Positions 3,246-63,800 are shown, counted from the stretch's first letter. The stretch: 64,000 nt of DNA from Flavobacteriales bacterium (GCA_022428205.1 JAKMCW010000068.1:473-64472); one strand, 5' to 3'. Program-made: numbers and translations. Notes: a model not told the origin generated them from the letters alone.

Positions 3246-3368
3246 GCCTAAAAATAGCCCTACCAATGGCGTGTGTCCAAGCCCCGGCGCACCGTGACCA
3301 ACGAAAGAACGTGAATTACGCGGGCGAGATCTGGGCACCTCCCTTTCCGCCTTTTGTAACTTGGTTCA

Positions 3369-10866: not shown

Positions 10867-11009
10867 GCAGTCTTGCTCTTGGCGGTTCGGCGGCACCGCT
10901 CACTGCAGTACTTGACTTCCTCCCAACACCGCGCCCACTTTTTACGCCAATCAAAGGGAAGCCCACACTGGACACAATCCTTCGACGGCAGATGCGGTTT
11001 GCGGTGCAT
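10863..11009 (-). CDS. DUF2256-type small Cys-rich protein (48 aa), not in the supplied ORF track
   Basis: Hand translation: [48 protein letters not shown]. Two CxxC-like pairs. The TGA overlaps the ATG of the FeS-BCP gene (ATGA). Confidence 0.75.
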
Positions 11010-27386: not shown

Positions 27387-27463
27387 CTGGCACATCATTC
27401 TTCGTTCAAATCGCAGTTTGGCACCATCCTCAAGGAGGAAGCGCCGGACAATATGCGACGAAA

Positions 27464-27694
27464 TCACCGTTCCCCCCCTGAAATCAGGACCACGAGATAT
27501 TGACCATCGACCACCACTTCGTCACCGACCAACAATTTTCTGCGGCGGCGAGACTCAGCCTCGCCATTGACCATCACACGGCCCTCATCCACCGTCCATT
27601 TGGCCTCTCCGCCTGTAGCGGAAAGACCCGTGGCCTTGAGCAACTGCAGCAAGTCGATGTACGGCGTGCGCAAGGAGAATTCAATCCGCTCCAC
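27464..27694 (-). CDS. RNA-binding S4 domain protein (YbcJ-like)
   Basis: 76 aa; IDLLQLLKATGLSATGGEAKWTVDEGRVMVNGEAESRRRRKLLVGDEV. GTG start. Confidence 0.7.
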   Translation of the reverse strand: MERIEFSLRTPYIDLLQLLKATGLSATGGEAKWTVDEGRVMVNGEAESRRRRKLLVGDEVVVDGQYLVVLISGGER

Positions 27695-41506: not shown

Positions 41507-44104
41507 ATGGACCACCACAATTGCATGCCTATGAGACGCTTCCTTCTCACCCTCCTGACCTTCAGCATCCTCATCCCTACAGGTTTCGGCCAGAATTACA
41601 GCCTTGAAGAAGAAGTGGTTAGCGCCGATATCGGCTTGCTCGTTGGTGCCCTCGGGATCGTAGACCTGACCGGATACAGCTGTACCCGGTACTATGTCAA
41701 CATGGAGAACGCCGACGACTTCATGTCTTCTGTTTCAGGTGATGCGACCAATCCCACCTACGTCAATACCACCACGAACTTCTATCACGCGACGCTTGGA
41801 GCAGCAACACCAAACGGGATCAACAGCCTGCTGTTTCCCGTTTACCCCGATCTCGTCTATGACAGCTGGGTCACCATCGGTCTCGAAGGCGTGCCCAACG
41901 CCGCAGCAGGCGAGGCCGCCGTGGCCACTGTACAATCCACAGACAACCCCTGGTCGACCAACTTCGAGCCTGGAGGCGGATTGCCAGGCAGCAACATCGC
42001 GATTGATGATGCCATCGGCGGTGCTTGGTATGCCCTCAACGGCGATGCCAATGGTGTTGCAGGTGACGACCTCAAAGTATTGGTCGGTCAATTCACGACC
42101 GAAGGAGACTTGAGCGGTCAGCTCTACTGTCAAATCTTCATCAATGGTGACGGATCTGACGAGTACCGAGAGACCTTCTACATCGGAGCCCCCCCTTCCG
42201 TTCCAGGCTGCATCGACGAGACAGCTTGCAATTTCGACGCAACAGCCAACGAGGATGACGGGTCCTGCACCTTCGCTGATCCAGGACTCAATTGTGACGG
42301 CTCATGCATCACCGACACCGATGGCGACGGCATCTGCGACGGCGATGAAGTGCCAGGCTGCACCGACGATACGGCCTGCAACTACGACGACACCGCGACC
42401 GACGACGACAGCTCATGTACCTATGCCGACCCCGGACTCAACTGCGACGGATCGTGCATCGAGGACACCGACGGTGACGGCATCTGCGACGGCGATGAAG
42501 TACCCGGTTGCACCGACGATACAGCGCTGAATTATGACGAAACTGCCACGGACGACGATGGCTCCTGTGAATATGGATGTGCGCCGGAATGGGGTGATCC
42601 CGTGACCTTGCCTTCCATCGCAACTGTGTTGGCCCAAGTGACCATTGCTGGCGAAAATGCCGCGTCAAATGACATCGTGGGCGCGTTCATCAACGGTGAA
42701 CTCCGTGGAGAGGGCAACATCATCGAGTACGAAGGCGGCACCTACATCAACATGACCGTCTATCTGGCGGGAGGCGAAGAGACCATCACATTCGCCCTCT
42801 TCAATGCCGAGGAATGCAGCGTCTGCAACATCGACGGTGAACTGACCTCCATGGGCTTCGGAGAATACGGCAGCTTTGATGACCCCCTCATGTTGGACGC
42901 CAACTGCACGGCCAGCACATTGGAGGTAGAACTCATGGCGGGCTGGAACTACGTATCCACCAACGTCACCCCTGACAACTACGCCATATCTGCGCTCTTT
43001 GAAGACAACCTCGGAGACAACCTCCTCAAGGTGTTGGGCGATGATGTCTTTGCACTTGGACAGAGCTACACACCCGGTATCCCAAGCGTATTCAACTCCC
43101 TGCAAATGCACATGGACGCTGCAGGTTACGTGATCAAAGTTGAAGCCGACGGCACCTGGTCATCAACCGGCGATCCTGTGGATGTTGCGACCACACCACT
43201 CGATTTGAACGAGGGCTGGAACATCATTGGTTACCTGCCACAGGCGGCCATGAACGTAGACATGGCCTTGTCTTCCATCGAAGGAACCATTGGAACGGTC
43301 ATCGACGGACAGAGTGGGACGGTATGGAACCCTGCCAACCCCAATGAATTCAACAGCCTCACTGAATTGGAGCCCGGCCGTTCCTACTGGGTGCGCATGT
43401 TGGAAGCCAGCACCCTGGTGTACCCTTCAGGTGATGCACCAGAGGACGGCAGTGGCATGACGCTTGCACACACCCGCACCGGCGACAACGCTGCTGAAAT
43501 GGCCACCGGCTGGGAGGTCGTGAGGCTCCCCGGAGCCGCTGCCCTCGCGGCAGAAGTTCGGTTGGATGAACTGCCCGTTGAAGGCGAAGCATACATCGGA
43601 GCTTTTGTGGGAGAAACCTGTGTTGCAGCCCGCACTGTTCTGACCCTCAGCGCCAGCACCGCTGCGCAAATGGCGATCATGCTCGAAGGGCCGAGTGAAG
43701 TCTCCTTCAAGTTGTGGGCCGATGGCATCGTCTACTCAGCGCAGGAAACAATGCTATTGGAAGCGGGTGATGAAGGTGGCCAAGGAGGAGACATCCTCCC
43801 CATCATTCGTTTCGCATCCGAAGCCAACAGTGTGGCCATGCAAGACTGGGTGCAGTCTTTCTCCATCGCGCCCGTTCCTGCCAACGGAGAAGCCTGGATC
43901 AACCTCGAACTCGCGCAGGGAAGCCAGGTGAGCATCAGCATCCTCGATGCGCGTGGCGCCATTGTCGACGTGCTCCATGATGGATACCTCAGTGCAGGCG
44001 CGCGGCGTATCGGACTCAACGCAGAACAATGGGCCGCAGGAACCTACTTCGTAAAAGGGGTGAGTGCGAAGGGCACATTCAGTACGCCGTTCATGGTGCG
44101 TTGA
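41507..44104 (+). CDS. T9SS-secreted protein: domain X, Cys-rich/TSP3-like tandem repeats, beta-sandwich-like modules, type-A CTD
   Basis: Signal ...MRRFLLTLLTFSILIPTGFGQ (alternative ATGs at 41525 and 41531). C-terminal FSIAPVPANGEAWINLELAQGSQVSISILDARGAIV...GTYFVKGVSAKGTFSTPFMVR. Confidence 0.8.
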   Translation: MDHHNCMPMRRFLLTLLTFSILIPTGFGQNYSLEEEVVSADIGLLVGALGIVDLTGYSCTRYYVNMENADDFMSSVSGDATNPTYVNTTTNFYHATLGAATPNGINSLLFPVYPDLVYDSWVTIGLEGVPNAAAGEAAVATVQSTDNPWSTNFEPGGGLPGSNIAIDDAIGGAWYALNGDANGVAGDDLKVLVGQFTTEGDLSGQLYCQIFINGDGSDEYRETFYIGAPPSVPGCIDETACNFDATANEDDGSCTFADPGLNCDGSCITDTDGDGICDGDEVPGCTDDTACNYDDTATDDDSSCTYADPGLNCDGSCIEDTDGDGICDGDEVPGCTDDTALNYDETATDDDGSCEYGCAPEWGDPVTLPSIATVLAQVTIAGENAASNDIVGAFINGELRGEGNIIEYEGGTYINMTVYLAGGEETITFALFNAEECSVCNIDGELTSMGFGEYGSFDDPLMLDANCTASTLEVELMAGWNYVSTNVTPDNYAISALFEDNLGDNLLKVLGDDVFALGQSYTPGIPSVFNSLQMHMDAAGYVIKVEADGTWSSTGDPVDVATTPLDLNEGWNIIGYLPQAAMNVDMALSSIEGTIGTVIDGQSGTVWNPANPNEFNSLTELEPGRSYWVRMLEASTLVYPSGDAPEDGSGMTLAHTRTGDNAAEMATGWEVVRLPGAAALAAEVRLDELPVEGEAYIGAFVGETCVAARTVLTLSASTAAQMAIMLEGPSEVSFKLWADGIVYSAQETMLLEAGDEGGQGGDILPIIRFASEANSVAMQDWVQSFSIAPVPANGEAWINLELAQGSQVSISILDARGAIVDVLHDGYLSAGARRIGLNAEQWAAGTYFVKGVSAKGTFSTPFMVR
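41597..42187 (+). other. domain X copy 3
   Basis: CTRYYVNMENADDFMSSVSG...TTTNFYH...YDSWVTIG...GGAWYALNGDANGVAGDDLKVLVGQFTTEGDLSGQLYCQIF. Confidence 0.7.
42275..42574 (+). repeat. 150-bp (50-aa) in-frame tandem repeat, 2 copies
   Basis: ADPGLNCDGSCI[TE]DTDGDGICDGDEVPGCTDDTA[CL]NYD[DE]TATDDD[SG]SC[TE]Y, with units starting at 42275 and 42425. Confidence 0.9.
43859..44101 (+). other. T9SS type-A C-terminal sorting domain
   Basis: FSIAPVPANGEAWINLELAQGSQVSISILDARGAIVDVLHDGYLSAGARRIGLNAEQWAAGTYFVKGVSAKGTFSTPFMVR. Confidence 0.8.
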
Positions 44105-44179: not shown

Positions 44180-47131
44180 TCAAGGACACAGTCCACCGAA
44201 TGCCGAAAGCATGGCCAACACATCCGATGCTCCCACCAACCCGTCGCCATCAACATCTTCAGGGCAAGCCGGATCGGCAATGCAGAGCTCAAGGATGGCA
44301 TCCCAGACTGTGCCGGGACCACAGAATTGCGAACCATCTACATCGGGGCCGCCATTATTGGTGCTGCAAACATCACATTCACCAAAACACACCACAGGGA
44401 GGGCATTCAATCCCGCCGATGTGGTCAGAGCCCGGTTGTAGCCGCCCAGCCCATTGTCCATTCCGCATTCAGCCGGCACGTCTTCCGCCAGCGCCCATTC
44501 CGGACCGGCCAAAAACTTGTATTCCAAGGTATCATTTGCCGGCACATTGACCTGCAAAGTCCACAGTCCGTCACCGGCATCAGACATCAAGGTTGCCGCG
44601 ACATCCCAACCTTGGAAGCTCCCTGCGACAAAGACAGAAGTCGGGGCAGGATCCACATTGGAAACGTCCACTTGGAACACCAATGGATACACACAGCTGC
44701 CGTCGTTCACATTGGCCGTGCCGTCATAGTTCACTGCTTCTGCATCCATACAACCGGGGTAATCCAAATTGGAAACACACGCTGCACAACCACCAAAACA
44801 CACATAATTGTCTGCTGAACCAGCCCCGGTGACGAGCACTTCTCTGTTGTAGCCTCCAAAACCATCGCCAGCACCGCATCCAGCGGGCACCGTTTCTGCC
44901 CCATCCCAAGTATTCCCGTTGATAAACTTGAATTGCAGCAAGCTGCCCACTGCCGCCAAGATGGTGACTTCCCAACGGTCATCCCCCATATCGACCAAAG
45001 CAGTCCCACTCGGGTCCCAACCTTGAAAGGAGCCTGCCACATGATAGCCTGATGCAGAGCCAAGGCCCGCGGCCTCCAAGTCGGTCGCGTCCAAAGCCAA
45101 GGAGACTTCATAAATGCAATCGGCTTCCTCACCAAAGTTCACAGCGGCAGCGTCATTGCAAACGGATTCCAAAGGCAAGGGTGCTGTCGGTGACACTGGA
45201 ACGACGGGCGTGTCCATCCACAGATGGTACTGACCTGGCGCGAAATAAAAGGCAGCACCCAAGTCCGTGACCTCATGGGTATCACCGGTCAGGGCGTCAG
45301 TCCAGGTTCCAAGGTGGGGGAATCCCGGCACCATGCTCAAACCCACCACATCGAAATTGCCACACAGCACCGCATTCTGACCGGGCGAATACAGGTGCAG
45401 TCGCTTGCCCATACCGCCGAAGTCGATGTTGTAATCGTACGTGCCAAAAACAGGCTCCTCCCGCTTCAGGTCACAGACATTCTTGATTTTGCGGGCCAAG
45501 CCCTGCCGCTCGGCAACCAACGCACGATCCTGCCAAGGCTCAGGTTTCTCATCCAATTTGCACGACTCTGTATACGTGCCATTTCCGCAATCGAATATGG
45601 ATACATCATATCCAAATTCGCCCCATTGGTACATCATTTTCGGACCGGGCATCGCCATCAAAAAGGCGTGCCCCATGGCCAAACGGTCCATAGCGGTGCC
45701 CAGCGCTTTGGCATCGTAGCCGTCAAATGCATTGCCATAGAGCAAGAGGTCATGGGCGACCCGCTGTTCATCGTGACTCTCCATGTAGGCGACCAAGTTG
45801 GGCCAATTCCACCCCCTCGCCTGCCACGAAGCCCAAGAGAAGTCTCCACCATATCCAAGGATGGCCTCGGCAAATGAAGAAGTCGATTTGCCCCACAGCA
45901 TAAACCCTCCGTTGGCCAATGCCGTCTCCTCGGCATTGTCTCCGAGGTGCTCCAAAATGAGGTATGCCCCTGGATGCTGCGCCCAAATGTGTTGGGCATA
46001 GTCAAACAGGATGTCCACCCTGCTCTGATCGTAGACATTCCAAGCCCCCACATTGCCCAGCGTATTGCTTTGGGTGAGGCCTTTGGAAAGGTCAAAACGG
46101 TAACCATCAATGTGGAATTCATCCATCCAATGGTCCATCACACGCTTCCAGAATTCACGGGTCCAAGGATCACCGTGATCGAAATCAAATCCGAGGCCAT
46201 ACGGGTGAATCTGGTCCTCGTTGAACCAAGGATTACCCGAAGACACGCCACCATCGCTGTCCTGGTACATCCGCACCAGGGGGTCCAGTCCAAAACTGTG
46301 GTTGGGCACAATGTCGAGGATCACTGCGATGCCCCTTTCATGGGCAGCATCGACCAATTGTTTGAGCGCTGTCGCTGTTCCGTAGGCCTTGTCCACTGCA
46401 AAGCGCGGCCCCGGGTTGTAGCCCCAACTGGTATTGCCATCAAACTCGCTGACGGGCATCAATTCGATGGCGTTGATTCCCAACCATTCCAGGTAATCCA
46501 AGCGTGACAAGACATTCCCGAAATCGCGCTCAGCGTCCCAGTCTCGCACCAACAGTTCATAGATGACCAAACGGTCTTGGGGGTCACGTTGGAATTCCGC
46601 ATCCGTCCACACGAATTCAGGTTCCACCGTGCGGAAAGCGGCCACCGGCCAAGCAGCATACTCCCACGGAAAACCAGGGCATGCTGGAAAAGTCTCCGCA
46701 GGGACATAGCCATCGTTCCAAGGGTCCAGAATGACCGGCGCATAGGGATCCGCAACCTCAACCGTATCGTCTATCAAGTAGTGAAACCGTGTCCAAGCGC
46801 CAGGCGTCAAGCCTTCCAGTTCCATCCACCACGTATTCCCATCCACCGACCGGTTCATCAAAAAATCTGAAGAGATCGACCAATCGTTGAAGTCGCCGCG
46901 CAAGTGGACATGGTCCTTTGCAGGCGCCCGGAGTTGGAAGTGCGCTCGGTCTGGAGACAACACCGTAATACCGTCTACCCTACCTGCTGGAGCGTCCAGG
47001 ATCAACCCCTGGGCCGCCACCTCCAAACCCAAGCTCAAAAGAGCCACAAACAGCACCACAAAACCGTGTATACGCGGGTAATGGTGCCGTTGAAGCACAG
47101 CAATTTCACAATAAGGGGTCCAAAGCCTCAT
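44180..47131 (-). CDS. GH13 alpha-amylase-family glycoside hydrolase with N-terminal CBM48-like module, two C-terminal CBM-like modules and dockerin-like tail
   Basis: GH13 regions VILDIVPNHS, GYRFDLSKG, LILEHLGDN, YMESHDEQR. N-terminal FQLRAPAKDHVHLRGDFNDWS. Ends in CPEDVDGDGLVGASDVLAMLSAFGGLCP. Start set to ATG 47131 because the longer ORF would overlap lpdA. Confidence 0.9.
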   Translation of the reverse strand: MRLWTPYCEIAVLQRHHYPRIHGFVVLFVALLSLGLEVAAQGLILDAPAGRVDGITVLSPDRAHFQLRAPAKDHVHLRGDFNDWSISSDFLMNRSVDGNTWWMELEGLTPGAWTRFHYLIDDTVEVADPYAPVILDPWNDGYVPAETFPACPGFPWEYAAWPVAAFRTVEPEFVWTDAEFQRDPQDRLVIYELLVRDWDAERDFGNVLSRLDYLEWLGINAIELMPVSEFDGNTSWGYNPGPRFAVDKAYGTATALKQLVDAAHERGIAVILDIVPNHSFGLDPLVRMYQDSDGGVSSGNPWFNEDQIHPYGLGFDFDHGDPWTREFWKRVMDHWMDEFHIDGYRFDLSKGLTQSNTLGNVGAWNVYDQSRVDILFDYAQHIWAQHPGAYLILEHLGDNAEETALANGGFMLWGKSTSSFAEAILGYGGDFSWASWQARGWNWPNLVAYMESHDEQRVAHDLLLYGNAFDGYDAKALGTAMDRLAMGHAFLMAMPGPKMMYQWGEFGYDVSIFDCGNGTYTESCKLDEKPEPWQDRALVAERQGLARKIKNVCDLKREEPVFGTYDYNIDFGGMGKRLHLYSPGQNAVLCGNFDVVGLSMVPGFPHLGTWTDALTGDTHEVTDLGAAFYFAPGQYHLWMDTPVVPVSPTAPLPLESVCNDAAAVNFGEEADCIYEVSLALDATDLEAAGLGSASGYHVAGSFQGWDPSGTALVDMGDDRWEVTILAAVGSLLQFKFINGNTWDGAETVPAGCGAGDGFGGYNREVLVTGAGSADNYVCFGGCAACVSNLDYPGCMDAEAVNYDGTANVNDGSCVYPLVFQVDVSNVDPAPTSVFVAGSFQGWDVAATLMSDAGDGLWTLQVNVPANDTLEYKFLAGPEWALAEDVPAECGMDNGLGGYNRALTTSAGLNALPVVCFGECDVCSTNNGGPDVDGSQFCGPGTVWDAILELCIADPACPEDVDGDGLVGASDVLAMLSAFGGLCP
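44183..44272 (-). other. Cys-bracketed dockerin-like C-terminal tail (single repeat)
   Basis: PACPEDVDGDGLVGASDVLAMLSAFGGLCP-stop. Confidence 0.7.
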
Positions 47132-47171
47132 AGACCGTAAGATACGACCCCTATTTTCGCATTTGAAACGA

Positions 47172-48566
47172 ATGGAAATGAAGTACGACATCGTAGTACT
47201 CGGAAGCGGCCCCGGTGGATATGTCACCGCCATCCGCGCCTCCCAACTTGGCTTAAAAACAGCCGTGATTGAAAGGGAAGCCCTCGGTGGCATTTGTCTG
47301 AACTGGGGATGCATTCCCACAAAAGCCCTGCTCAAGAGCGCCAACGTTTTTGAGTACATCGAACACGCTGAAGACTACGGCATTAAAGTCGCCAAGCCCA
47401 AAGTCAACTTCGACGGCATGGTCAACCGCTCCAGGGGCGTAGCCGACGGAATGTCCAAAGGCGTCCAGTTCTTGATGAAGAAGAACAAGATTGACGTCAT
47501 CATGGGCAATGGCAAACTGATGCCCGGCCGCAAGGTGGAAGTCACCTCTGAAGATGGAAGCCAACAGGTCGTCGAGGCCAACCACATCATCATCGCCACA
47601 GGAGCGCGAAGCCGAGTGCTTCCCAACCTCCCACAAGACGGCGAGAAGATCATCGGTTACCGAGAGGCCATGACCCTCAAGAAGCAACCCAAGAAGCTTG
47701 TGGTGGTCGGCTCAGGCGCCATTGGCGTGGAGTTTGCCTACTTCTACAACGCCATTGGCACGGAAGTGACCGTGGTGGAGTATCTGCCCAACATTGTCCC
47801 CGTCGAAGACGAGGAAGTGTCCAAGCAATTGGCACGCAGCTTCAAAAAGGCGGGCATCAAAATCATGACCTCTAGCGAGGTCACCAGCGTGGACACTTCC
47901 GGTTCAGGCGCCAAGGTCACCGTCAAGACCGCGAAAGGAGAAGAAGTCATTAATGCCGATGTGGTGCTCTCCGCAGTCGGTGTTGTATCCAACATCGAAG
48001 GCATAGGCCTTGAAGAAGTCGGAATTGCCACTGACCGCGGCAAATTGATTGTCGATGACTTCTACAACACCAATATTCCCGGGTATTGTGCCATCGGTGA
48101 TTGCGTGCCAGGGCCCGCTTTGGCGCATGTCGCCAGTGCAGAAGGCATCCTCTGCGTAGAAAAGATTGCCGGTCACGATGTAGAACCCATCGATTACGGC
48201 AACATCCCAGGCTGCACCTATTGCTTCCCAGAGGTGGCCAGCGTCGGCAAAACCGAGAAAGCCTGCAAAGAGGAAGGCATCGACATCAAAGTCGGCAAAT
48301 TCCCCTTCAGTGCAAGTGGCAAGGCCAGTGCCGCAGGACATAAGGACGGATTCGTGAAGCTCATCTTTGATGCCAAGTATGGTGAGCTCTTGGGCGCGCA
48401 CATGATTGGAGCCAATGTCACCGAAATGATCGCTGAGATTGTCGCCATCCGTAAACTGGAGACCACCGGGCACGAAATCATCAAGACAATCCATCCTCAC
48501 CCCACACTCAGTGAGGCCGTGATGGAAGCTGCAGCAGCGGCCTACGACGAGGTCATCCACCTGTGA
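47172..48566 (+). CDS. lpdA: dihydrolipoyl dehydrogenase
   Basis: YDIVVLGSGPGGY (FAD site), GGICLNWGCIPTK (redox disulfide), C-terminal HPHPTLSE. ATGs at 47172 and 47178; the track start at 47163 is TTG. Confidence 0.95.
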   Translation: MEMKYDIVVLGSGPGGYVTAIRASQLGLKTAVIEREALGGICLNWGCIPTKALLKSANVFEYIEHAEDYGIKVAKPKVNFDGMVNRSRGVADGMSKGVQFLMKKNKIDVIMGNGKLMPGRKVEVTSEDGSQQVVEANHIIIATGARSRVLPNLPQDGEKIIGYREAMTLKKQPKKLVVVGSGAIGVEFAYFYNAIGTEVTVVEYLPNIVPVEDEEVSKQLARSFKKAGIKIMTSSEVTSVDTSGSGAKVTVKTAKGEEVINADVVLSAVGVVSNIEGIGLEEVGIATDRGKLIVDDFYNTNIPGYCAIGDCVPGPALAHVASAEGILCVEKIAGHDVEPIDYGNIPGCTYCFPEVASVGKTEKACKEEGIDIKVGKFPFSASGKASAAGHKDGFVKLIFDAKYGELLGAHMIGANVTEMIAEIVAIRKLETTGHEIIKTIHPHPTLSEAVMEAAAAAYDEVIHL

Positions 48567-53357: not shown

Positions 53358-56300
53358 TTAGCGCAGGATCATCAGCTGGCCCGCGTGCTCTTCGCCTTCT
53401 GGCAATTGCAACACGAAATAATGGGTGCCGTCGGCAGCACCTTCTCCTGACCAATCGTTGTCATAGCCCTCAGCTTCGTACACCACCGCACCATTTCGGT
53501 TGTACACGGTCAAGAAGTTGTCAGGGTACAACTCGATGTACTTGAACACCAAGCGGTCGTTCTTGCCATCTCCATTGGGTGTGAAGATGTTGACCAACTC
53601 GACCGCACAGGATAGGATTTCCAGCACGTGGGAGTCCGTATCGCCACAAAGTCCTTCGAGAACATGATTGACCGTCACCGTACCTACGCCAGCGGCCTCC
53701 AAGTCCAACAGACCCGTCACGGGATCTATGCACTCATTGCCCGATGCACTGCTCGCACTCCACACACCATCGGCCCAAATCGACCCCAACTGCCACTCCT
53801 CTACCCCGATGCACAACTCATCGTTGGGCACATCGACCAGAATCGCAGCGTCACGTTGCGGCACCACGGTGACTTGCACGGCATCGACATCCGAACAGAC
53901 ATCCGTAATGGTGTAAGTGATCGTGTAGTTGCCTGCACCAATGCCGGGATCAAAGCTGCCAGCTGGGGTAATGCAATTGCCACACGAAGCTGTCCAAGTA
54001 CCCCCTCCATCGGCCGCACCAAAGACCTCAGTACCCGATGATTCACAAAGGTCTGGAATGGCATCAATCGAAGCATCTACAGCAGGCGCCACCAGAATCT
54101 CAATCGAAGCTCCTGTACTGCAACCCACTGGGTCATTGTAGGCGATGGAGACCGTATGCGTGCCTTCTCCAGCATCGCCTGGATCGAAGACACCATTGCT
54201 GCTGAGGCAGCCGCCGCAGTCGCTCGTCCACACCAGATTGGGCACATCCGACCAGACAGCCTCGGCACTCAAGTCCACATCTGAATTCAATGCCCCTCCG
54301 GAGCTATTGACACAGAATGGATCTTCCTCTTGGAGTGTGACGCTCAAAATGGGCAATACCTCCAGCGAGAACGAGGCGGAATTCGTGCAAGCCCCATTCT
54401 CCACTTGGTAATTCAAAACATTCACACCGAGCGGTGCAGCTCCAGGGTCGAAACTGGCTCCGTTCAAGCCTGCGCCGGATGCTGTCCATGTCCCGCCAGG
54501 AACGTCTGCCTCGAGGCTGAGCGCGGTGGCATCCACGCATACCACGTCGGGGACGTTCGAAGAACCAATGGGCAAACTCTCATCTACCGTAACCGTCGCC
54601 TCACTCTCAACACCACAGCCCGCACCGGGCAAGAAACTCACTGCATACGCACCTGGCCCCGGGGGCGTGAAGGCCCCAGAGTTTTGAATGCAACCGCCAC
54701 AATCAGCGGTCCAAGTACCTGCTAAACCGTCTCCATCCAATTGGATGCTGCCTACAGACTCGCAATAATTGACATCCTCCAATGAGGCGGCCACCTCCTC
54801 TCCTACATTGACCGCAACCGTACCTGTGGAGGTACACAACGTGCCAAAGGTGTAAGAGGCCGTGTAGGCACCAGCACCCGTTGATGGATCAAACAAACCG
54901 TCCGGAGAAACACAACCGCCGCAGTCAGCTTCCCAGTTGCCCCCAGCAGGGGTTGCCACCAGCTGCACAGGGTCAGCAAAAGGGCACAACCCACCAACAC
55001 TACCGGTGTTGATGTTTGGCGTCAAGCCGACCTGTATTTCCTCAACCTCAGTGACCTCTCCACAATCACCGAGCAAGGTGTAGCTCACCTCCAAGATGCC
55101 CGGTGGCGTCTGGCTTGGATCGATGGTTCCACCCTGATCAAGACAGCCCACACAATCTGCAGCCCACGTGCCTCCAGGTGCATCCGGAGCGAGCGTCACC
55201 GCTTCATCGCCGCTGCACAAAACGTCGAGTGGATTGCCATCCATGTCGAGGATGGCAAATTGGGCGTTTTGAGACTCGAAGGTGAATTCTACCATAATGG
55301 TGTCCGTCGCCATGAACTGGGACGTATCAGGCTCCTCAGGCTCGAGATTACACAGGTAAAAGAGGGTAACAGACCCCTCGAAATTGACATTCGCACCTGA
55401 ACCACCCCAAGCGTTTTGCACGGTCAATGTCCAATCACCGTCGCCCTCCAGAAGGTTGCCAGGCACCGCGAAGCACGCTTCGTAAAACCCACCAAAAGTG
55501 GTGTTCCAGTTAAAGGGCCAATCTCCGATCAAAACACCAGGCAGGTCGAAACTGAATCCCTCGATGACACCGCATGACCCCGACGGATCACAAATAGACA
55601 TAGACATGTCACCAGGCCAACTTCCGCCAGCTGGTGACCAATTGTTGGTCACCGCAAAGCCGAGCAATTCACCTTCAAAGGGAAAATCAAAGGACCCGGT
55701 CTGGTTGGCACTGAGGTTGAAGTCATACCCCATGACCGTATCACACGCTTCTTCAGGAATAGCGTCACAACTGCCCGCGACAGGAGGAGGAGGCAAAATC
55801 TCCGGGAAATTCGCGCCAATCACAAGCTCGGTGGTCCCTTCAATACACAGCGAAATGCTGTCTCCTTGGCCCACGATTTCATCTCCCAGGAGGTACACCA
55901 ACTGGGTTTGGGTCGCACCATTGGGTGAATACTCAAAGGACTCATTGGAAATCGTGAACTCCCCGGTATCATACTCTGCCGGGCCAAATGCACCTTCACC
56001 AGAACCTCCCTGGATTCCTACACAGGCCGTAATCCCCAAGCAAGACTCGAATTGGCCAATGTGCATTTCAACTTTGTTGGAGGTCTCGTGCAGCACCACT
56101 TGCGTCACCAGCTCATTGGAACCGCATCCCGTTTGCGGCAAGTTCTCCCAGCTAATGACGAACTGTCGGCAAGGGAATTCTCCCAGTGTAGCCGTACGGA
56201 CCTCCCCTCCACTGTTACTGATGTAAGCGTACGGAGCCATGATCGAGTTGGAAGGCAGTGAGCCGGAGCCCAGACTCTGGTTGGGGTAATTGTAAGTGCC

Positions 56301-56720: not shown

Positions 56721-58892
56721 TCACTCACACGAATCGCCGTACGATGCCAACAACTCAAGAATGTCCCCCACTCCTACTGTACCGTTGCCATCCACATCCC
56801 CTTCGAGGTTGCTCCCCATTTCTCCGAAATCTGACAAGGTCTCCAACAAATCCGTCGCACCCACCACACCATCACCATCAATATCTAAGGGACAGGAAGC
56901 AGGTCCACCGAAGTATCCGGACACCTTGAAAAAAGCCATATCAGCCACCTCTACCCCGAGCTGGCGGCCAGGAAAATCATCCGCTGGCGGATGGATTCCT
57001 CCCCAGATGCGCGACAAGCTACACTGGTCAGAAGCATCGCGATAGGTGGCCCATTGCAAGCTAAAGGTCTGGCTCGGCCCATCTTCAAACACCAAAAACT
57101 GGTTTTGCAGCACTTCAAACTCTCCCATTCCTCCTGGAAAAAATGGGCTGCCCGTCACCGCTGTCAAAATCTCTGCCGCTGCCCGTGAAAATGTGCTGTG
57201 GCCACTGACATATCCAGCAAATGGTGGCGTAACAAAGCTCGGCCTTTGGTAAGGCCACCATTGCTCTGCCAAAATCCAGCCGACCTCGGCTTCGTCCCAA
57301 GTGGGTGAAATGATGGCATCAGGCCCTTGCCAAGCCCACACTTTAATCTTGCCTTCATTGCCTCCTGCAGCCAAGGGATCTCCGGCTTCCACCAGTTCAA
57401 TCCGCCCTTCCACCAGAGGAAGGCCCCCTGGATCATATGAGGGAAGTGAAGCATCACTGCGTTGTCCCAATTCCGCCATGTATCGGATCGCCGACACTGG
57501 ACGGATGTAGTCATACAAACCTTTGTGCGACCAAGCTGAGATGGCCGCATCATGCATCGCTCCACCAAGAGCGAGATAGGCACGAACGGTATACTTCAGG
57601 GGGTCCAAGTCTTCCCCTTCTCCCATCCATTTCGTGTTCGAAGCTGGGTGGTCCATGACACCGTTCAGCAGCACGAACCAGTGCCCTGGAGGCGTTTCAC
57701 TCTCTGGACCATCGGCCCAAAACTCCGCCAAGACACGCGCGTAATCACCACGCGGTACGACGTTCTCAGAATAAGGAGCGCCTGTCGCGGGGTTTTGTAA
57801 ATGGCCCTCACTGAGGTCACCACCTTCCAGCCAATCGTAGAAGGTGTCCATTTCTTCGAAACCATCAGGTCCTGTCGAAGAGAGGTTTCCAAGACTTCCG
57901 GGGCCGATGTCCATCATGACGCCGTCCGAAGGGTGCAAATGGCCACTCCACAGTGCCACCAGAGCAAAGCCCCATGCGTAAGGGTCTGCCAGACCTCCTA
58001 CCTCTTCCCCTTCTCCGAAGTATGGCGGCGCACCACAGTCCATGTAAAGCGGCCAGGTGATTCCGTTTCGTTCAACTTCAGTCAACACGGTATCAGAAAG
58101 CGCAAAAGGAAGAACACTGCCCCATTCTGCACCTTGAAAGTCTGGTGTCTCACTGAGCACATTGCCCGACTGATCAACAAAAACTGGAATGGACAGGGGC
58201 TGCCACGCATTGGGGTCCACCAATCCTGAATTCCCGGAACCTGCCAGCTCCAAATCTGGGTTTACTGAACTGTAATACTGATTGGCATAGTCGGCTGCTT
58301 CATTCGAGCCATCCTGAAGACCAAAGGCAATCAACTGCTCACCAAGATAATTTCCGATGGCAGCAGGCCCTTCTTCGATGTTGACAGACGTGTACCCGGG
58401 GCTGTACCCCAATTCTGCCATGAAATTGGTAAAAGAGAACAACACCTCAAGGCCCCCTGGACTGTTCGTGAACCGGTGGTTCAACAGCCTGAAAACAGCG
58501 TAACTCATGACCGTCTGTACTGCGGCCTTGCGCAGCGCCTCGTCCTCAGGGATATCGATGAGTGAGGTGTCCAAAGGGCACGCGAATCCTTGCCATGTCT
58601 TGCCCAAAAAAACGGTCTCATCCTGCCCATCGTAGAGGGCGTGAGCGTCATACATCGCAATTGAAGTATGGAACAGGTTTCGCGCATGAACGGTAGGCCT
58701 CGCGAAGTCTGCACGGATGGCTTCGAGCAAGAGCTCATTCCACTGCCTGGCCAGCGTTTCTTCCACAGCCTGGCTCCGGGCTTCTGCTGAAGAACCATAC
58801 CGAGTGGTGGGCATGGATGCAACCTGGCAGACGAGGTCCATGGGGACCAGCATCAAAAGGCCTAAAACGACGGAAAAGAAGGCACGCACCAT
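56721..58892 (-). CDS. vanadium-dependent haloperoxidase / PAP2-like secreted enzyme with two dockerin-like repeats at the C-terminus
   Basis: Signal peptide. Motifs KGLYDYIRP (K-x6-RP), YVSGHSTF (SGH) and SRIWGGIHPPADD (SR-x5-H-x3-D). Ends in CPLDIDGDGVVGATDLLETLSDFG...DVDGNGTVGVGDILELLASYGDSCE. Confidence 0.8.
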   Translation of the reverse strand: MVRAFFSVVLGLLMLVPMDLVCQVASMPTTRYGSSAEARSQAVEETLARQWNELLLEAIRADFARPTVHARNLFHTSIAMYDAHALYDGQDETVFLGKTWQGFACPLDTSLIDIPEDEALRKAAVQTVMSYAVFRLLNHRFTNSPGGLEVLFSFTNFMAELGYSPGYTSVNIEEGPAAIGNYLGEQLIAFGLQDGSNEAADYANQYYSSVNPDLELAGSGNSGLVDPNAWQPLSIPVFVDQSGNVLSETPDFQGAEWGSVLPFALSDTVLTEVERNGITWPLYMDCGAPPYFGEGEEVGGLADPYAWGFALVALWSGHLHPSDGVMMDIGPGSLGNLSSTGPDGFEEMDTFYDWLEGGDLSEGHLQNPATGAPYSENVVPRGDYARVLAEFWADGPESETPPGHWFVLLNGVMDHPASNTKWMGEGEDLDPLKYTVRAYLALGGAMHDAAISAWSHKGLYDYIRPVSAIRYMAELGQRSDASLPSYDPGGLPLVEGRIELVEAGDPLAAGGNEGKIKVWAWQGPDAIISPTWDEAEVGWILAEQWWPYQRPSFVTPPFAGYVSGHSTFSRAAAEILTAVTGSPFFPGGMGEFEVLQNQFLVFEDGPSQTFSLQWATYRDASDQCSLSRIWGGIHPPADDFPGRQLGVEVADMAFFKVSGYFGGPASCPLDIDGDGVVGATDLLETLSDFGEMGSNLEGDVDGNGTVGVGDILELLASYGDSCE
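56724..56900 (-). other. Cys-bracketed dockerin-like C-terminal tail (two repeats)
   Basis: ASCPLDIDGDGVVGATDLLETLSDFGEMGSNLEGDVDGNGTVGVGDILELLASYGDSCE-stop. Confidence 0.7.
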
Positions 58893-60845: not shown

Positions 60846-63800
60846 TTACTCGCTGACGAGGAGCTTCTTGACCAACACGTAGTCATTGCTCGACATGCGG
60901 ATCTGGTACATACCGCTAGACAATGTGCTAGCGTCGATGTCCATCACGTATTGCACATCCTCGCTGGCGTTGCCATCAAACAACTCGGCCACGTATCCAC
61001 CGCCCATCGTGTAGAGGTCGATGCGGAGGCGCATGTTGCTGTTCACCACAAACCCGAGCGTAGAGATATCGCTGGTTGGGTTTGGAGAGAGGCCCGTGAT
61101 ACGGATTGGATCCTTCAGGTTGCTCGTACCTGCAGTGAGATCCACAGGTGAGTGACCACCGCTAACCGTGCTGTTTGCACTGTTACCGAACGTACCCGTT
61201 CCGAGGTCGGTGTAGGTGAAGCCGTTGGAGTTTCCGCAGTCGTCCACAACGTTGTAGCTGTAGTCGATCTGCCATCCGAGGCAGCAGTCGAGGTCCATGA
61301 AGATGTCACCGCTAGAAGCCATAGCTCCTTGGCTAGCACCATCGAGGACATACTCACCGGTCCAGAAGAACCAAGCGCTAGCACCGTAGTTCTCGTTCTT
61401 GTTGTTGGCGCCTTCACCAATCTGCAAGCCATAGTAGGCATTCAGAGGCTGGTGCTGGAGCGCGAACTCAGAACCTGCGAAGCGACCCGTACCGCTCATG
61501 GTACCACCGTCCATCACGTAGTACAACCACTCCGTCCAGATCTCAACACCGGGGAAGATCTCTGCACAGTCTTTCTTGTAGTTGTGCAAGCCTGGCAGGG
61601 CGAGCCACTCATTCCAGTCGTGTGCACCTTCGTAGATAGCGTCGAAGATGAATCCGGCATCACCTGCCTCATTCTGTACTTCGAGCACGATGTGCATAGA
61701 GCTGTCCTGCATGACCTCAACGATGCTGCTGCCACCTTCTACGAGGGTGAAGGACTCACCTCCAGAGAAGTTGAACAAGCGGATCGCTTCAGGAGCGCGG
61801 TCGTCACAAGTCTCACCGTTGGCGAGGGCTTCGACGTCACTTGGCATGCAATAGTTGGCAATGTCGCCTGTGGGCACGTAGCCCATCGTGTCAGCCGTCA
61901 TCGTCAACGCCACGTCGCTGTCGCAGTTCTCGATGTACGAAGGAGCGCAAGCTGCGGGAATCTCCGTGAAGTCGAGGACGTCATTCACTCCGTTACCGTT
62001 GTCATCAGCGCAGGTGTACTCTACCGTCTCGCCGTTCTCAATGTCACACGTGTTGGTGAACTGAGGAGCGATGGTGTCGAGCACCACGATGTACTGGTAG
62101 GAGTACTCCGTGTTGGAGTTGCCGCAATCGTCCGTCACCGTAGACGTCCACACACGTGGGAAGACATAGCTTCCTTCGATGTTGTCGTCGTCGCCGGAAC
62201 AACCGTCGCCGAAGGTGATGGTCCGCAGCTGCTGCTGGCTTCCATCTCCTTGTGGGAAGATTTGAGCGAAGATTTGACCGTTCAGGTCACCGTCAGTGGT
62301 GACTTGAGCAACCAACACCTTACCGTCAGCATCAGCATAACCATTGGATGCGCCGTTGAGCATGTAGAAAGCACCGCCGAACAGGCTGCTGATCACTACA
62401 TCTTCTCCGTTCTCGAAACGCGTGTACCACTGATCTCCCGCGGTTTGAATCGCAGCAACAGGCTCCTCTCCGAGGTCTGCATTTGGAATGGAGTCCAAAC
62501 CGATCGTGATGTAGCTGTCGTACTCCAAATCAGGGAAGGTCTCGAAGAGGTCGTGGTTCAGGTCGTTTGGCGTATGAGAGCCAATCGGGTGCTGATAGAA
62601 GCTCGTGCTCGTGCGGATCTGGGTGCTAAATGAACCCTCTCCACTGACTGAGCTCAAGAAGTCTCCAGCAGCAGGAAGCACTGCATAGATGCGGTAAGTG
62701 CTCATACCAGCGAGTTCGCCCGTTGTGTGCACGGCCACCGTATCAATTTCAACATTCGCTGAGCCGAAGAGGTCGTCGAAGTTGGCAGGATCATCCTCAT
62801 AAGACACCTCAATGGCGACATCGCTGTCACAGTTGTCTGCAGCCTCCACACCTGGCTCCATCGCTGGCGTCACGTCAGCCATGCAATCCAAGTCGAGGTA
62901 GAGCGTGTCCGTAGGCAGGGTAGCCAAGGTCTGCGTTGGAGCCAAGTCGTCAATGACGGTGATGGTCTGGTCGCAGGTCACACTGTGGCTGTTACCGCAG
63001 TCATCCGTCGCCGTAGAAGTGAACGTACGCACGAAGCTGTATGATCCGTCGAGTTGGTCGTCATCTCCTGCACAGCTGTAGCTAGGAGCAGCGTCTGCAT
63101 AGGTGATTTCAATCGACACCTCGGAGTCACAGTTGTCAGTACCAGAACCTGTTGCCATACCGAGAGCATCAGTGCTCAGGTCAGCCTCACAGTTGGCATC
63201 CAACATGACCGTTTGATCATCAGGACAAGAAATGCTCGCCTCAGGTGCGATGTTGTCTTCGACCACAATCAGCTGATCACAAGACTCCTCAGAGACGTTG
63301 CCGCAGTCATCAACAGCAGAGGCCGTCCAGGTACGAACGATTTCGTAACCGCTGGTTCCGCATGTGTAGGTGGCAGCACCATCGCTGTAGCTATAGGTGA
63401 TGGTCACATCCGTATCACAGTCATCCGTCGCCAAGGCGAAGGCACTTCCTGTGATGGAAGGATCGAGATCGGCCATGCAATCTGCATCCAGCTGGACCGT
63501 AGCCGTGTCTGGGCAGGTCAGCGAGATAGACGGACCAGTGATATCGAACGTGTTGATTACCTGCGTGCAGATCTCAGTAGTGGAGTTGCCATTGCAGTCA
63601 ATCGCCGTCACCGTGAAGGTCCGTACGAAGTTGTAGCTGCCCTCTGGATTCGCATCCACACCGACCAAGCTGCAGTCAAACTCAACTTCATCGCTATAGG
63701 TGTAGCTCACATCCAGATTCTCATCACAGTTGTCAGTGGCAATCCACTCAACCTCACCCAAGGCAGCCAAGCTTGTATCCAAGCTCGCGAAGCAAGAACC

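What the first reader, a model, noticed from the sequence alone, without database searches (positions are those of the whole stretch)
44183..44272. Shared extreme-C-terminal tag: C-P-x-D-[LVI]-D-G-D-G-x-[AV]-[VG]-x-x-D-[LV]-L-x-x-L-x-x-[FY]-G-x-x-C-x-stop on three unrelated enzymes
Three proteins share a closely matching terminal peptide:
- GH13 (44183..44272): PACPEDVDGDGLVGASDVLAMLSAFGGLCP.
- Tandem hydrolase-like protein (20453..20542): NPCPTDLDGDGATAVGDLLLLLGSFGQPCD.
- Haloperoxidase-like protein (56724..56900): two repeats, ASCPLDIDGDGVVGATDLLETLSDFG...DVDGNGTVGVGDILELLASYGDSCE.

The D-x-D-G-D-G...D-L-L core is the Ca-binding loop-helix of dockerin repeats (established). New here are the strict placement at the very C-terminus, the flanking Cys pair (possible disulfide), and use of a single repeat in two of the three. 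I recall a 'GC-type dockerin' anchor annotation from other phyla but cannot verify that this belongs to it.
Basis: partly seen in the sequence, partly recalled or inferred. Interest (0 to 1): 0.7.

Follow-up and report, generated by a model that had tools for sequence, protein, structure and literature searches.

The report
Cysteine-stapled dockerin-like tail on secreted enzymes
Three unrelated secreted enzymes of an uncultured marine Flavobacteriales bacterium end in a short calcium-binding, cysteine-bracketed dockerin-type tail that sits where related bacteria carry the type IX secretion domain; the two-repeat form belongs to a catalogued but untested family, and the one-repeat form is not captured by any curated model tested here.

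Summary
Three long ORFs (GH13 amylase, tandem esterase, VCPO-like protein) end in C-P-x-D-x-D-G-D-G…D-[LV]-L…[FY]-G-x-x-C. The loop motif occurs 4 times in the six-frame translation, against 0.01–0.13 expected.

It is a dockerin-superfamily module. The two-repeat tail matches solved dockerins by sequence (E = 2e-7) and by predicted fold (TM 0.76–0.83).

The window's tails score below its cut-off (20.5, 14.7, none; cut-off 29).

What seems undescribed:
- A single-repeat version is common in Flavobacteriales (23 of 37 genome-scan hits; ~66 GH13 homologues).
- Homologues elsewhere in Bacteroidota carry a T9SS C-terminal domain at the same position.
- Cysteine co-occurrence implies disulfides across repeats, never within one (C1+C4 109, C2+C3 39, C1+C2 0), so single tags may pair in trans.

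Most likely function: a Ca2+-dependent, disulfide-stapled docking module, not a cleaved sorting peptide. No partner was found, and the route across the outer membrane is unknown.

Verdict: new variant of a known kind, moderate interest.

The parts
44183..44266 (-). Single-repeat Cys-bracketed dockerin-like tag of the GH13 protein (CPEDVDGDGLVGASDVLAMLSAFGGLCP; aa 1032-1059 of the ORF); stop codon at 44180-44182
   Evidence: Translation; coordinates; sub-threshold NF041540 14.7 bits and PF00404 15.5 bits; conserved in about 66 GH13 homologues with both Cys invariant
44282..44323 (-). C-G-P-G-T-x-W-D-x5-C mini-module immediately upstream of the GH13 tag
   Evidence: Invariant C15, C28, W21 in alignment A5; predicted beta-hairpin; coordinates
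44180..47359 (-). GH13 alpha-amylase-family ORF with CBM48 and AMPK1_CBM/CBM20-like modules; true start probably near 47128-47131 (orthologues are 983 aa)
   Evidence: Pfam; orthologue lengths
20453..20536 (-). Single-repeat Cys-bracketed tag of the tandem esterase (CPTDLDGDGATAVGDLLLLLGSFGQPCD; aa 1294-1321)
   Evidence: Translation; coordinates; no hit to NF041540 or PF00404; 78-89% identical tags on esterase-like proteins in other genomes
20450..24415 (-). Tandem BD-FAE / alpha-beta-hydrolase esterase ORF (1321 aa) with SPI-type signal peptide and Cys-rich linker modules
   Evidence: Pfam; internal duplication at 68.6% identity
56724..56894 (-). Two-repeat tail of the VCPO-like protein, bracketed by one Cys pair (C667...C722 of 723 aa)
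   Evidence: Translation; NF041540 20.5 bits over profile positions 1-67; profile hits solved dockerins, E=2e-7; AF2 pLDDT 87; TM 0.76/0.83 and rmsd 1.1 A to dockerin 2y3n_B; both Cys invariant in 32 homologues
56721..58892 (-). VCPO_2nd/DUF6851 (vanadium haloperoxidase-like) ORF, identical to NCBI MCH1582352.1 (L7S63_04475, Flavobacteriales MAG)
   Evidence: Pfam; identity
41113..41343 (+). Contrast: T9SS Por_Secre_tail CTD on the neighbouring 3100-aa HYR-rich surface protein (32050-41352)
   Evidence: Pfam
43871..44077 (+). Contrast: T9SS Por_Secre_tail CTD on the 865-aa protein convergent with the GH13 gene
   Evidence: Pfam
53376..53600 (-). Contrast: CHU_C (type B) T9SS CTD on the 1107-aa protein
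   Evidence: Pfam
60855..61085 (-). Contrast: T9SS Por_Secre_tail CTD on the 1024-aa protein
   Evidence: Pfam

Best explanation
The tag is a divergent, cysteine-stapled member of the dockerin superfamily, and its nearest curated relative is NCBIfam NF041540 'GC-type dockerin'. Each unit is a 12-residue Ca2+-binding loop (Asp at positions 1, 3, 5 and 12) followed by an amphipathic helix ending in [FYW]-G. After Sec export and signal-peptide cleavage, the unit folds in the oxidising periplasm or outside the cell, binds Ca2+ and is locked by disulfides. In the VCPO-like protein, two units form a complete dockerin fold whose N- and C-termini are stapled by the single Cys pair. In the GH13 and esterase proteins only one unit is present. 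Its job is extracytoplasmic protein-protein docking: it tethers soluble exo-enzymes to a partner, either a scaffold or another tagged protein. In this Flavobacteriales lineage it sits at the position where homologous enzymes of other Bacteroidota carry the T9SS C-terminal domain. It is a folded interaction module and not a cleaved terminal sorting peptide. Shown here: sequence and fold homology to dockerins, conservation of Ca ligands and Cys, C-terminal bias, diverse exo-enzyme cargo, and the CTD/tag alternation. Inferred: Ca2+ binding, disulfide formation, docking function, and retention of the tail.
For: Dockerin homology: the profile of 32 two-repeat tails hits solved dockerins first (2y3n_B E=2e-7; 1ohz_B, 4fl4_A, 6kg9_A about 7e-4), ahead of EF-hand proteins. 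The AF2 model has pLDDT 87 with inter-loop bridges at loop position 7 and superposes on dockerin 2y3n_B (TM 0.76/0.83, rmsd 1.1 A); the top 11 structural hits are all dockerins. NF041540 aligns end to end with the VCPO tail (positions 1-67), though below cut-off. Conservation: Ca-ligand Asp and both Cys are invariant in 32 double and 41 single tails. Placement: 36/37 Bacteroidota and 83/86 Planctomycetota pattern hits in species-representative genomes are C-terminal. Module rather than signal: it occurs at the mature N-terminus in three Phycisphaerales hydrolases, between two esterase domains in a Flavobacteriales protein, and about 100 aa upstream of a T9SS CTD in P0289. Cargo: M12B peptidases, Endonuclease I, phosphodiesterase, GH13, esterases, CBM proteins and others, mostly with SPI-type '...AQ' signal peptides. 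Alternation with T9SS CTD: all 33 close VCPO orthologues carry the tail while about 70 homologues in other Bacteroidota end in PF18962. The same holds for GH13 (about 66 with the single tag; P0200-P0248 with PF18962).
Against: No cohesin (PF00963) or any other candidate partner was found in the window, even at E<=10, and a genome-wide census was not possible. Single-repeat tags cannot make a dockerin fold alone, and their model has no structural analogue in the PDB. Tags track the cargo family (76-89% identity across genomes) rather than the genome (48% between the two single tags here), unlike cellulosomal dockerins that share one scaffoldin. The tagged enzymes have no evident route across the outer membrane (no CTD, no clear lipobox). 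All curated dockerin models score below threshold on the window's proteins. There is no experimental literature on this subtype.
Confidence: 0.55

Rival explanations
1. Half-dockerin pairing in trans (specific to the single-repeat tags). One loop-helix unit from each of two tagged proteins, or from a tagged enzyme and a half-dockerin-bearing anchor, associates antiparallel around two Ca2+ ions to rebuild a dockerin-like two-repeat domain. Two intermolecular disulfides (start-Cys of one chain to end-Cys of the other) then lock it. The result would be covalent enzyme homodimers, heterodimers, or covalently anchored enzymes, with no cohesin needed.
For: Cys co-occurrence in 305 non-identical adjacent repeat pairs: C1+C4 only 109, C2+C3 only 39, all four 98, C1+C2 only 0, C3+C4 only 2 (both dubious). 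Cysteines therefore pair across repeats and never within one, so by homology the two Cys of a single unit are partners of another unit. The 4-Cys doubles are literally two single tags in tandem (P0289). Tags are cargo-specific and conserved with the cargo, as expected for self-pairing. The single-tag model is not a complete known fold. Isolated single EF-hand peptides are known to dimerise on Ca2+ binding (established knowledge, not tested here).
Against: There is no coordinate-level or multimer modelling, so an intramolecular ring between the two Cys of one unit is not excluded. AF2 gave a reasonably confident monomer (pLDDT 78). The co-occurrence counts include related sequences and so overstate the number of independent events. 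No biochemical data exist.
Confidence: 0.3
2. A new class of C-terminal secretion or sorting signal: an alternative to the T9SS CTD, recognised by T9SS or another exporter and possibly cleaved after transport.
For: It sits at the position of the T9SS CTD in homologous enzymes. It is strictly C-terminal in 36/37 Bacteroidota hits, with 0-6 residues after the last Cys. The cargo are typical exo-enzymes with Sec signal peptides. The tagged enzymes otherwise lack an obvious route over the outer membrane.
Against: The same module is most abundant in Planctomycetota, which do not have T9SS (established knowledge). It also works at the mature N-terminus and internally and coexists with a CTD in one protein. 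It is a small Ca-binding helical fold homologous to dockerins and not a 70-100-aa beta-sandwich. It has none of the hydrophobic or basic features of sortase-type CTERM signals (direct reading of the sequence).
Confidence: 0.1
3. A partner-less Ca2+-binding, disulfide-closed stability cap: a degenerate dockerin remnant that merely protects the C-terminus of exported enzymes in Ca-rich seawater.
For: No partner was found. Single units are incomplete dockerins. Tags evolve with their cargo.
Against: The helix face and the [FYW]-G are strongly conserved across unrelated cargo and two phyla. The tag is as conserved as the catalytic body: 76% tag identity against 66-91% whole-protein identity. The systematic alternation with the T9SS CTD points to a localisation role. 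A stability cap would not be expected on so many unrelated folds, nor as multi-repeat arrays.
Confidence: 0.12

Closest known systems
NCBIfam NF041540 'GC-type dockerin domain-anchored protein' (domain model, 67 positions)
   Same: It opens with Cys-Pro and closes with Gly-x-x-Cys / Gly-Cys, has D-x-D-G-D-G loops followed by helices, is C-terminal, and sits on diverse secreted hydrolases. The model aligns end to end with the VCPO-like tail.
   Different: The window's tails are below the 29-bit cut-off (20.5, 14.7, no hit), whereas Phycisphaerales tails score 52-63 bits. The helix motif is L-L-x-x-L-x-x-F-G rather than F-D-F-L-x-F-Q-N-x-F-D-A-G. Two of the three tails have one repeat, not two. 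The host phylum is Bacteroidota, not Planctomycetota. PGAP names none of these proteins with this family. The family has no published characterisation that I could find.
Cellulosomal dockerins (Pfam PF00404 Dockerin_1; e.g. PDB 2y3n_B, 1ohz_B)
   Same: Two tandem Ca-binding loop-helix repeats and the same fold (TM 0.76-0.83, rmsd 1.1 A). There is significant profile-to-sequence similarity. They are C-terminal appendages on unrelated enzymes.
   Different: There is a terminal disulfide staple, and the solved dockerins aligned here show no Cys bracket. Scores are below the Pfam gathering threshold. A single-repeat form exists. No cohesin was detected nearby. The organism is an aerobic marine Gram-negative with T9SS and not a Gram-positive cellulosome producer. 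Tags are not homogenised within the genome.
T9SS C-terminal domains (PF18962 Por_Secre_tail / TIGR04183; PF13585 CHU_C)
   Same: They occupy the same extreme C-terminal position on homologous enzymes. They sit on the same kind of cargo and coexist in the same genome; there are four in this window.
   Different: No sequence or fold relationship. The CTD is a 70-100-aa beta-sandwich secretion signal, whereas the tag is a 27-59-aa Ca-binding helical module. The tag also occurs outside T9SS-bearing phyla and can sit N-terminally, internally, or upstream of a CTD.
Proposed 'planctosome' cohesin/dockerin system of freshwater Phycisphaerae (PMC6461901)
   Same: A non-cellulosomal dockerin on peptidases (M12B) and other hydrolases in a Gram-negative. 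HYR-domain surface proteins are in the picture (compare).
   Different: That model is itself a hypothesis and it includes identified cohesin domains, and none was found here. It does not describe Cys brackets, single repeats or Bacteroidota.
EF-hand Ca-binding motifs (PF13405, PF00036)
   Same: A 12-residue D-x-D-x-D-G...D/E loop followed by a helix, with weak sub-threshold hits.
   Different: There is no entering helix, because Cys-Pro directly precedes the loop. Dockerins outrank EF-hand proteins by both sequence and fold. The context is extracytoplasmic.

Membership tests
NCBIfam NF041540 GC-type dockerin | Score at or above the curated cut-off (29 bits) | tested here: not met
   VCPO tail 20.5 bits (14.6 in the whole protein), GH13 tail 14.7, esterase tail no hit. 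For comparison, Phycisphaerales tails score 52.2 and 62.7, one Flavobacteriales 4-Cys double 30.3, and Flavobacteriales singles give no hit.
NCBIfam NF041540 GC-type dockerin | Cys at the start (C-P, profile position 1) and at the end (G-C, position 67) | tested here: met
   All three tails open with C-P-x-D and close with G-x-x-C. The profile alignment spans positions 1-67. Both Cys are invariant in homologues.
NCBIfam NF041540 GC-type dockerin | Two loop-helix repeats between the Cys pair | tested here: inconclusive
   Met by the VCPO-like tail. Not met by the GH13 and esterase tails, which have one repeat.
NCBIfam NF041540 GC-type dockerin | Anchoring of the carrier protein through the domain (implied by the family name) | not testable with these tools
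   No experimental paper was found and no partner was identified.
Dockerin type I (Pfam PF00404) | Score at or above the gathering threshold (22.9 bits) | tested here: not met
   Whole VCPO-like protein 13.2 bits, isolated double tail 22.2, GH13 tail 15.5, esterase tail no hit.
Dockerin type I (Pfam PF00404) | Duplicated roughly 22-residue segment with Ca-ligand Asp/Asn at loop positions 1, 3, 5 and 12 | tested here: inconclusive
   Ligand positions are present and invariant. The duplication is present only in the VCPO-like tail.
Dockerin type I (Pfam PF00404) | Dockerin three-dimensional fold | tested here: met
   For the two-repeat tail only: AF2 pLDDT 87; TM 0.76/0.83 and rmsd 1.1 A to 2y3n_B, with the top 11 hits all dockerins. 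For the single tag there was no significant match.
Dockerin type I (Pfam PF00404) | Ca2+-dependent binding to a cohesin module encoded in the same genome | not testable with these tools
   No PF00963 signal at E<=10 in the four large surface proteins of the window and no cohesin among PDB sequence hits. The whole genome could not be searched.
T9SS C-terminal sorting domain (PF18962 / PF13585) | Match to a CTD model; a 70-100-aa beta-sandwich at the C-terminus | tested here: not met
   None of the three tagged proteins has a CTD hit, while four neighbouring proteins do. The tag is 27-59 aa and predicted helical.
EF-hand (PF13405 / PF00036) | Score at or above threshold; helix-loop-helix with an entering helix | tested here: not met
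   Best scores are 20.6 and 20.3 bits against cut-offs of 25 and 25.4. Cys-Pro directly precedes the loop. Dockerins outrank EF-hand proteins.

The most novel reading that the evidence does not exclude
Single-repeat tags are 'half-dockerins'. They have no intrachain partner for their two cysteines and complete the fold in trans, giving Ca2+-dependent, doubly disulfide-locked pairs. These would be enzyme homodimers, mixed enzyme pairs, or enzymes covalently hooked to a half-dockerin-bearing surface anchor. In a clade of marine Flavobacteriales this cohesin-free, covalent docking system would have replaced T9SS-CTD-mediated display for a whole set of exo-enzymes.
Probability: 0.3. Interest if true: 0.8.

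Novelty: new variant of a known kind. Interest (0 to 1): 0.55.

Why it matters
Marine Flavobacteriales are major degraders of algal polysaccharides, proteins and nucleic acids. How they position their exo-enzymes (free, surface-bound or periplasmic) determines whether hydrolysis products are shared or kept. In Bacteroidota that positioning is thought to rest on T9SS C-terminal domains and surface lipoproteins. This finding shows that one lineage, including the cultured Sanyastnella coralliicola, has swapped the T9SS domain of amylases, haloperoxidase-like enzymes and many other hydrolases for a small Cys-stapled dockerin-type tail. Current annotation pipelines do not recognise that tail. If the tail docks enzymes to a scaffold or to each other, it defines a second, unannotated display system in Bacteroidota, shared with Planctomycetota. 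The 27-residue single unit would also be an unusually small Ca2+- and redox-controlled coupling tag of possible biotechnological use. At minimum, the curated NF041540 and PF00404 models miss a large set of true relatives.

Tried and rejected
1. Plus-strand translation at the given coordinates gives nonsense; the genes are on the minus strand.
2. The exact-sequence contig look-up for the VCPO-like protein found nothing. A later cluster look-up found an identical NCBI protein, MCH1582352.1.
The 62-column version returned only 8 short fragments, useful as orthologue tails but not as a census.
4. The exhaustive profile search is dominated at the top by multi-repeat proteins, because repeat scores add up. 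It shows the size of the superfamily (16,614 representatives at E<=1e-3) but says little about single-repeat tags specifically.
5. The partner search was negative: a permissive Pfam scan of the four large T9SS surface proteins and PDB sequence searches.
6. The fold search of the single tag gave no meaningful match.
7. Literature: nothing for 'GC-type dockerin'. Nothing relevant for dockerin plus T9SS or Flavobacteriales, nor for single-repeat dockerin-like modules. The review by Peer et al. is not held.
8. I considered that the C-G-P-G-T-x-W-D module upstream of the GH13 tag is a degenerate first dockerin repeat. I rejected this because it is predicted as a beta-hairpin and the esterase has a different upstream module.
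9. I considered a 'type C' T9SS CTD. I rejected this as the main reading because the module is abundant in Planctomycetota, is tolerated N-terminally and internally, and coexists with a CTD.
10. I could not establish what 'GC' in the family name stands for (Gly-Cys ending or high G+C).
Full report
**Observation.** The coordinates given are plus-strand coordinates of three minus-strand genes. Plus-strand translation is meaningless, and the minus strand gives exactly the quoted peptides.

The three carriers are:
- a GH13 alpha-amylase-family protein with CBM48 and AMPK1_CBM/CBM20-like modules (ORF 44180-47359);
- a 1321-aa tandem BD-FAE / alpha-beta-hydrolase esterase (20450-24415);
- a 723-aa DUF6851/VCPO_2nd haloperoxidase-like protein (56721-58892).

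A loose loop motif occurs four times in the whole six-frame translation. All four are in these tails, and three of them end exactly 11 residues before the stop. Shuffling gives 0.01 (dinucleotide) or 0.13 (residues within long ORFs) expected matches, and none for the full Cys-bracketed pattern, which occurs twice. A local HMM of the repeat finds no other copy in the window. Aligning the tails shows that the two-repeat tail is the one-repeat tail with a second loop-helix inserted between F-G and the closing Cys.

**Source and context.** The VCPO-like protein is identical to NCBI MCH1582352.1 (locus tag L7S63_04475), from a 64.6-kb contig of an uncultured Flavobacteriales MAG. G+C is 56.4%. Four neighbouring large proteins carry T9SS C-terminal domains: three Por_Secre_tail and one CHU_C. 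The organism therefore uses T9SS, but the three tagged enzymes have no CTD. They begin with hydrophobic N-terminal signal-like sequences ending in ...AQ or ...CQ (by eye).

**What the tag is.** Curated models give only sub-threshold hits:

| Model (cut-off) | VCPO tail | GH13 tail | Esterase tail |
|---|---|---|---|
| NF041540 dockerin_GC (29 bits) | 20.5 | 14.7 | no hit |
| PF00404 Dockerin_1 (22.9 bits) | 22.2 | 15.5 | no hit |

Homology is nevertheless clear for the two-repeat form:
- A profile of 32 orthologous tails hits solved cellulosomal dockerins first (2y3n_B E=2e-7; 1ohz_B, 4fl4_A and 6kg9_A about 7e-4), ahead of EF-hand proteins.
- AlphaFold2 gives a confident model (pLDDT 87) with two loop-helix units and the inter-loop bridge at loop position 7.
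- The model superposes on the dockerin of 2y3n at TM 0.76/0.83 and rmsd 1.1 A, and the top 11 structural hits are all dockerins.
- The Ca-ligand aspartates and both cysteines are invariant.

**Relation to 'GC-type dockerin'.** Probing NF041540 with representative tails shows that its 67-position profile starts at the opening C-P and ends at the closing G-C. It is therefore itself a Cys-bracketed two-repeat C-terminal module.

| Tail type | NF041540 score (bits) |
|---|---|
| Phycisphaerales tails | 52-63 |
| Planctomycetota W-G-P-C-P type | 28.5 |
| Flavobacteriales 4-Cys doubles | 30.3 and 25.4 |
| Flavobacteriales singles | no hit |

That family is not characterised, and no paper mentions it. 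PGAP does not apply its name to these proteins, which are called 'alpha-amylase family glycosyl hydrolase', 'vanadium-dependent haloperoxidase' or 'hypothetical protein'.

**Distribution and placement.** A back-translated pattern for C-P-x-D-x-D-G-D-G-x5-D-[LVIMF]-L has roughly 42 bits of information, so I expect fewer than one chance match in 596 Gb (my own calculation). The loci fall into two groups:
- Planctomycetota (Phycisphaerales and MAGs labelled Isosphaeraceae);
- uncultured Flavobacteriales/Bacteroidota. A few contigs labelled Nitrosopumilus or Comamonadaceae carry Flavobacteriales-type tails and are probably mis-binned.

Read in frame, 36 of 37 Bacteroidota matches and 83 of 86 Planctomycetota matches lie within 90 residues of a stop, after a long ORF. 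In Bacteroidota, 23 are single repeats and 13 are doubles.

An exhaustive profile search with the single unit finds 16,614 cluster representatives at E<=1e-3. In 95 of the top 148, the last loop lies within 40 residues of the C-terminus, and many bracket every repeat with Cys.

**Cargo.** Twenty complete tag-bearing ORFs from Flavobacteriales loci carry a wide range of domains:
- M12B metallopeptidases
- Endonuclease I
- phosphodiesterase plus LamG
- GH13
- BD-FAE esterase
- CBM48/AMPK-CBM proteins
- FG-GAP/ASPIC
- beta-helix
- sortilin-type domains
- six ORFs with no Pfam match

Most begin with SPI-type signal peptides. This is an exo-enzyme set.

**Alternation with the T9SS domain.**
- VCPO-like protein: all 33 close orthologues (67-91% identity, about 726 aa) end in the Cys-bracketed double tail. 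A second clade has a divergent Cys-bracketed version, and two proteins have dockerin-like tails without Cys. About 70 homologues from Lewinellaceae, Saprospiraceae, Hanstruepera, Phaeodactylibacter and others end in PF18962 at the same position, with similar total length.
- GH13: about 66 of the 71 closest homologues end in the single tag with 1-3 residues after the last Cys. One is from the cultured Sanyastnella coralliicola (Sanyastnellaceae, Flavobacteriales). P0200-P0248 carry PF18962 instead.

**Module or signal?** Four pattern hits are not C-terminal. In three Phycisphaerales hydrolases the double follows the signal peptide directly. In a Flavobacteriales protein (L008) a 4-Cys double lies between two alpha/beta-hydrolase domains. 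In P0289, a 2175-aa Bacteroidota surface protein, a 4-Cys double lies about 100 residues upstream of a T9SS CTD. A unit that works at either end, internally and next to a CTD behaves as a folded interaction domain and not as a terminal sorting peptide. Its abundance in Planctomycetota, which lack T9SS (established knowledge), argues against recognition by T9SS.

**Disulfide logic.** I scored which of the four possible Cys positions are occupied in 305 non-identical adjacent repeat pairs. The positions are before loop 1 (C1), after helix 1 (C2), before loop 2 (C3) and after helix 2 (C4).

| Cys positions occupied | Count |
|---|---|
| C1 + C4 only | 109 |
| all four | 98 |
| C2 + C3 only | 39 |
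| C1 + C2 only | 0 |
| C3 + C4 only | 2 (both dubious) |

Cysteines therefore come in cross-repeat pairs. That matches the antiparallel, pseudo-twofold dockerin fold, where the start of one repeat lies next to the end of the other (inference from the fold). The counts include related sequences, so they overstate the number of independent events, but the complete absence of the within-repeat pattern is notable.

The consequence is that the two cysteines of a single-repeat tag are, by homology, partners of cysteines on another repeat. The single tag plus its upstream hairpin is modelled at pLDDT 78 as a hairpin plus one loop-helix and has no structural analogue in the PDB.

Tags track the cargo family and not the genome:
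- GH13 tags are 76% identical among orthologues from different genomes.
- Esterase tags are 78-89% identical across genomes.
- The two single tags in this genome are only 48% identical to each other.

This is unlike cellulosomal dockerins, which converge on one scaffoldin. It is compatible with self-pairing or with a generic partner.

**Mechanism.** The best-supported reading (confidence about 0.55) is a Ca2+-binding, disulfide-stapled docking module. It would fold after Sec export and attach soluble exo-enzymes to a partner, taking the structural place of the T9SS CTD in this lineage.
- For the single-repeat tags, a specific and more novel version is half-dockerin pairing in trans with two interchain disulfides (about 0.3).
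- Rivals are a new secretion signal (about 0.1) and a partner-less stability cap (about 0.12).

Two gaps remain:
- No cohesin or other partner was found in the window, and I could not search a whole genome.
- The route of these CTD-less, apparently non-lipoprotein enzymes across the outer membrane is unknown. They may be periplasmic, or they may leave with a CTD-bearing carrier or in vesicles.

The only related published idea I found is the hypothetical 'planctosome' of freshwater Phycisphaerae, which also involves M12B peptidases and HYR-domain proteins (PMC6461901).

**Verdict.** Terminal placement and the Cys bracket are not new. The single-repeat form, its spread in Flavobacteriales, the systematic replacement of T9SS CTDs, and the cross-repeat cysteine logic are not captured by the curated models tested here or by any paper I could find. 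I rate it a new variant of a known kind, of moderate interest, with a testable and more interesting possibility attached.

Noticed in passing
window 20558-20617, 20990-21049, 21062-21118, 21623-21682, 21737-21796 (-), inside the esterase ORF; one copy by eye in the GH13 ORF (PGCMDAEAVNYDGTANVNDGSC): A roughly 20-aa Cys-bracketed module, C-x-[DN]-x-x-A-x-N-[YF]-x(4-6)-A-x-x-D-D-G-[ST]-C, is repeated as a linker between domains. The same 'DDGSC' ending sits just upstream of the tag in many related loci. No Pfam family matched it here.
   Followed up: partly
window 44282-44323 (-): A C-G-P-G-T-x-W-D-x5-C mini-module lies directly before the GH13 tag. Its two Cys and the Trp are invariant in 41 homologues and it is predicted as a beta-hairpin. 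Orthologues carry a precomputed Pfam hit, PF26120, that is absent from the local Pfam copy, so what it covers is unknown.
   Followed up: partly
window 20450-24415 (-): The esterase is an internal tandem duplication: aa 21-442 and 449-871 are 68.6% identical, so there are two catalytic BD-FAE-like domains in one chain.
   Followed up: yes
window 24537-27467 (-): A TonB-dependent receptor (CarboxypepD_reg + Plug + barrel) lies directly upstream of the tagged esterase on the same strand. This is a possible uptake-hydrolase pair.
   Followed up: no
window 47128-47359 (-): The GH13 ORF has a 5' extension of about 77 codons. Orthologues and the NCBI record are 983 aa, so the real start is near 47128-47131, just before the signal peptide.
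   Followed up: partly
window 32050-41352 (+): A 3100-aa T9SS cargo protein has 16 HYR_4C stretches. Together with three further CTD proteins (41507-44104, 53358-56681, 60846-63920), this makes the window dense in surface proteins.
   Followed up: partly
window 8027-9319, 9322-10896, 13331-14851 (-): There is a cluster of three photolyase/cryptochrome-family genes: two with DNA_photolyase + FAD_binding_7 and one DPRP.
   Followed up: partly
window 1734-3338 (-): A 534-aa protein has a C-terminal AhpC/TSA / thioredoxin-like domain and a hydrophobic N-terminus. It may be an exported thiol-disulfide oxidoreductase. No link to the Cys-bracketed tags was tested.
   Followed up: no
L029, L031, L040, L054: Contigs titled Nitrosopumilus or Comamonadaceae carry Flavobacteriales-type tags, Cys-rich linkers and typical Bacteroidota signal peptides. 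They are probably mis-binned in their MAGs.
   Followed up: no
L008 5741-7852 (-); P0289: Unusual architectures: esterase-dockerin-esterase in L008, and lamin-tail-like repeats + 4-Cys dockerin + T9SS CTD in P0289. The latter is the kind of surface protein that could act as an anchor for tagged enzymes.
   Followed up: partly
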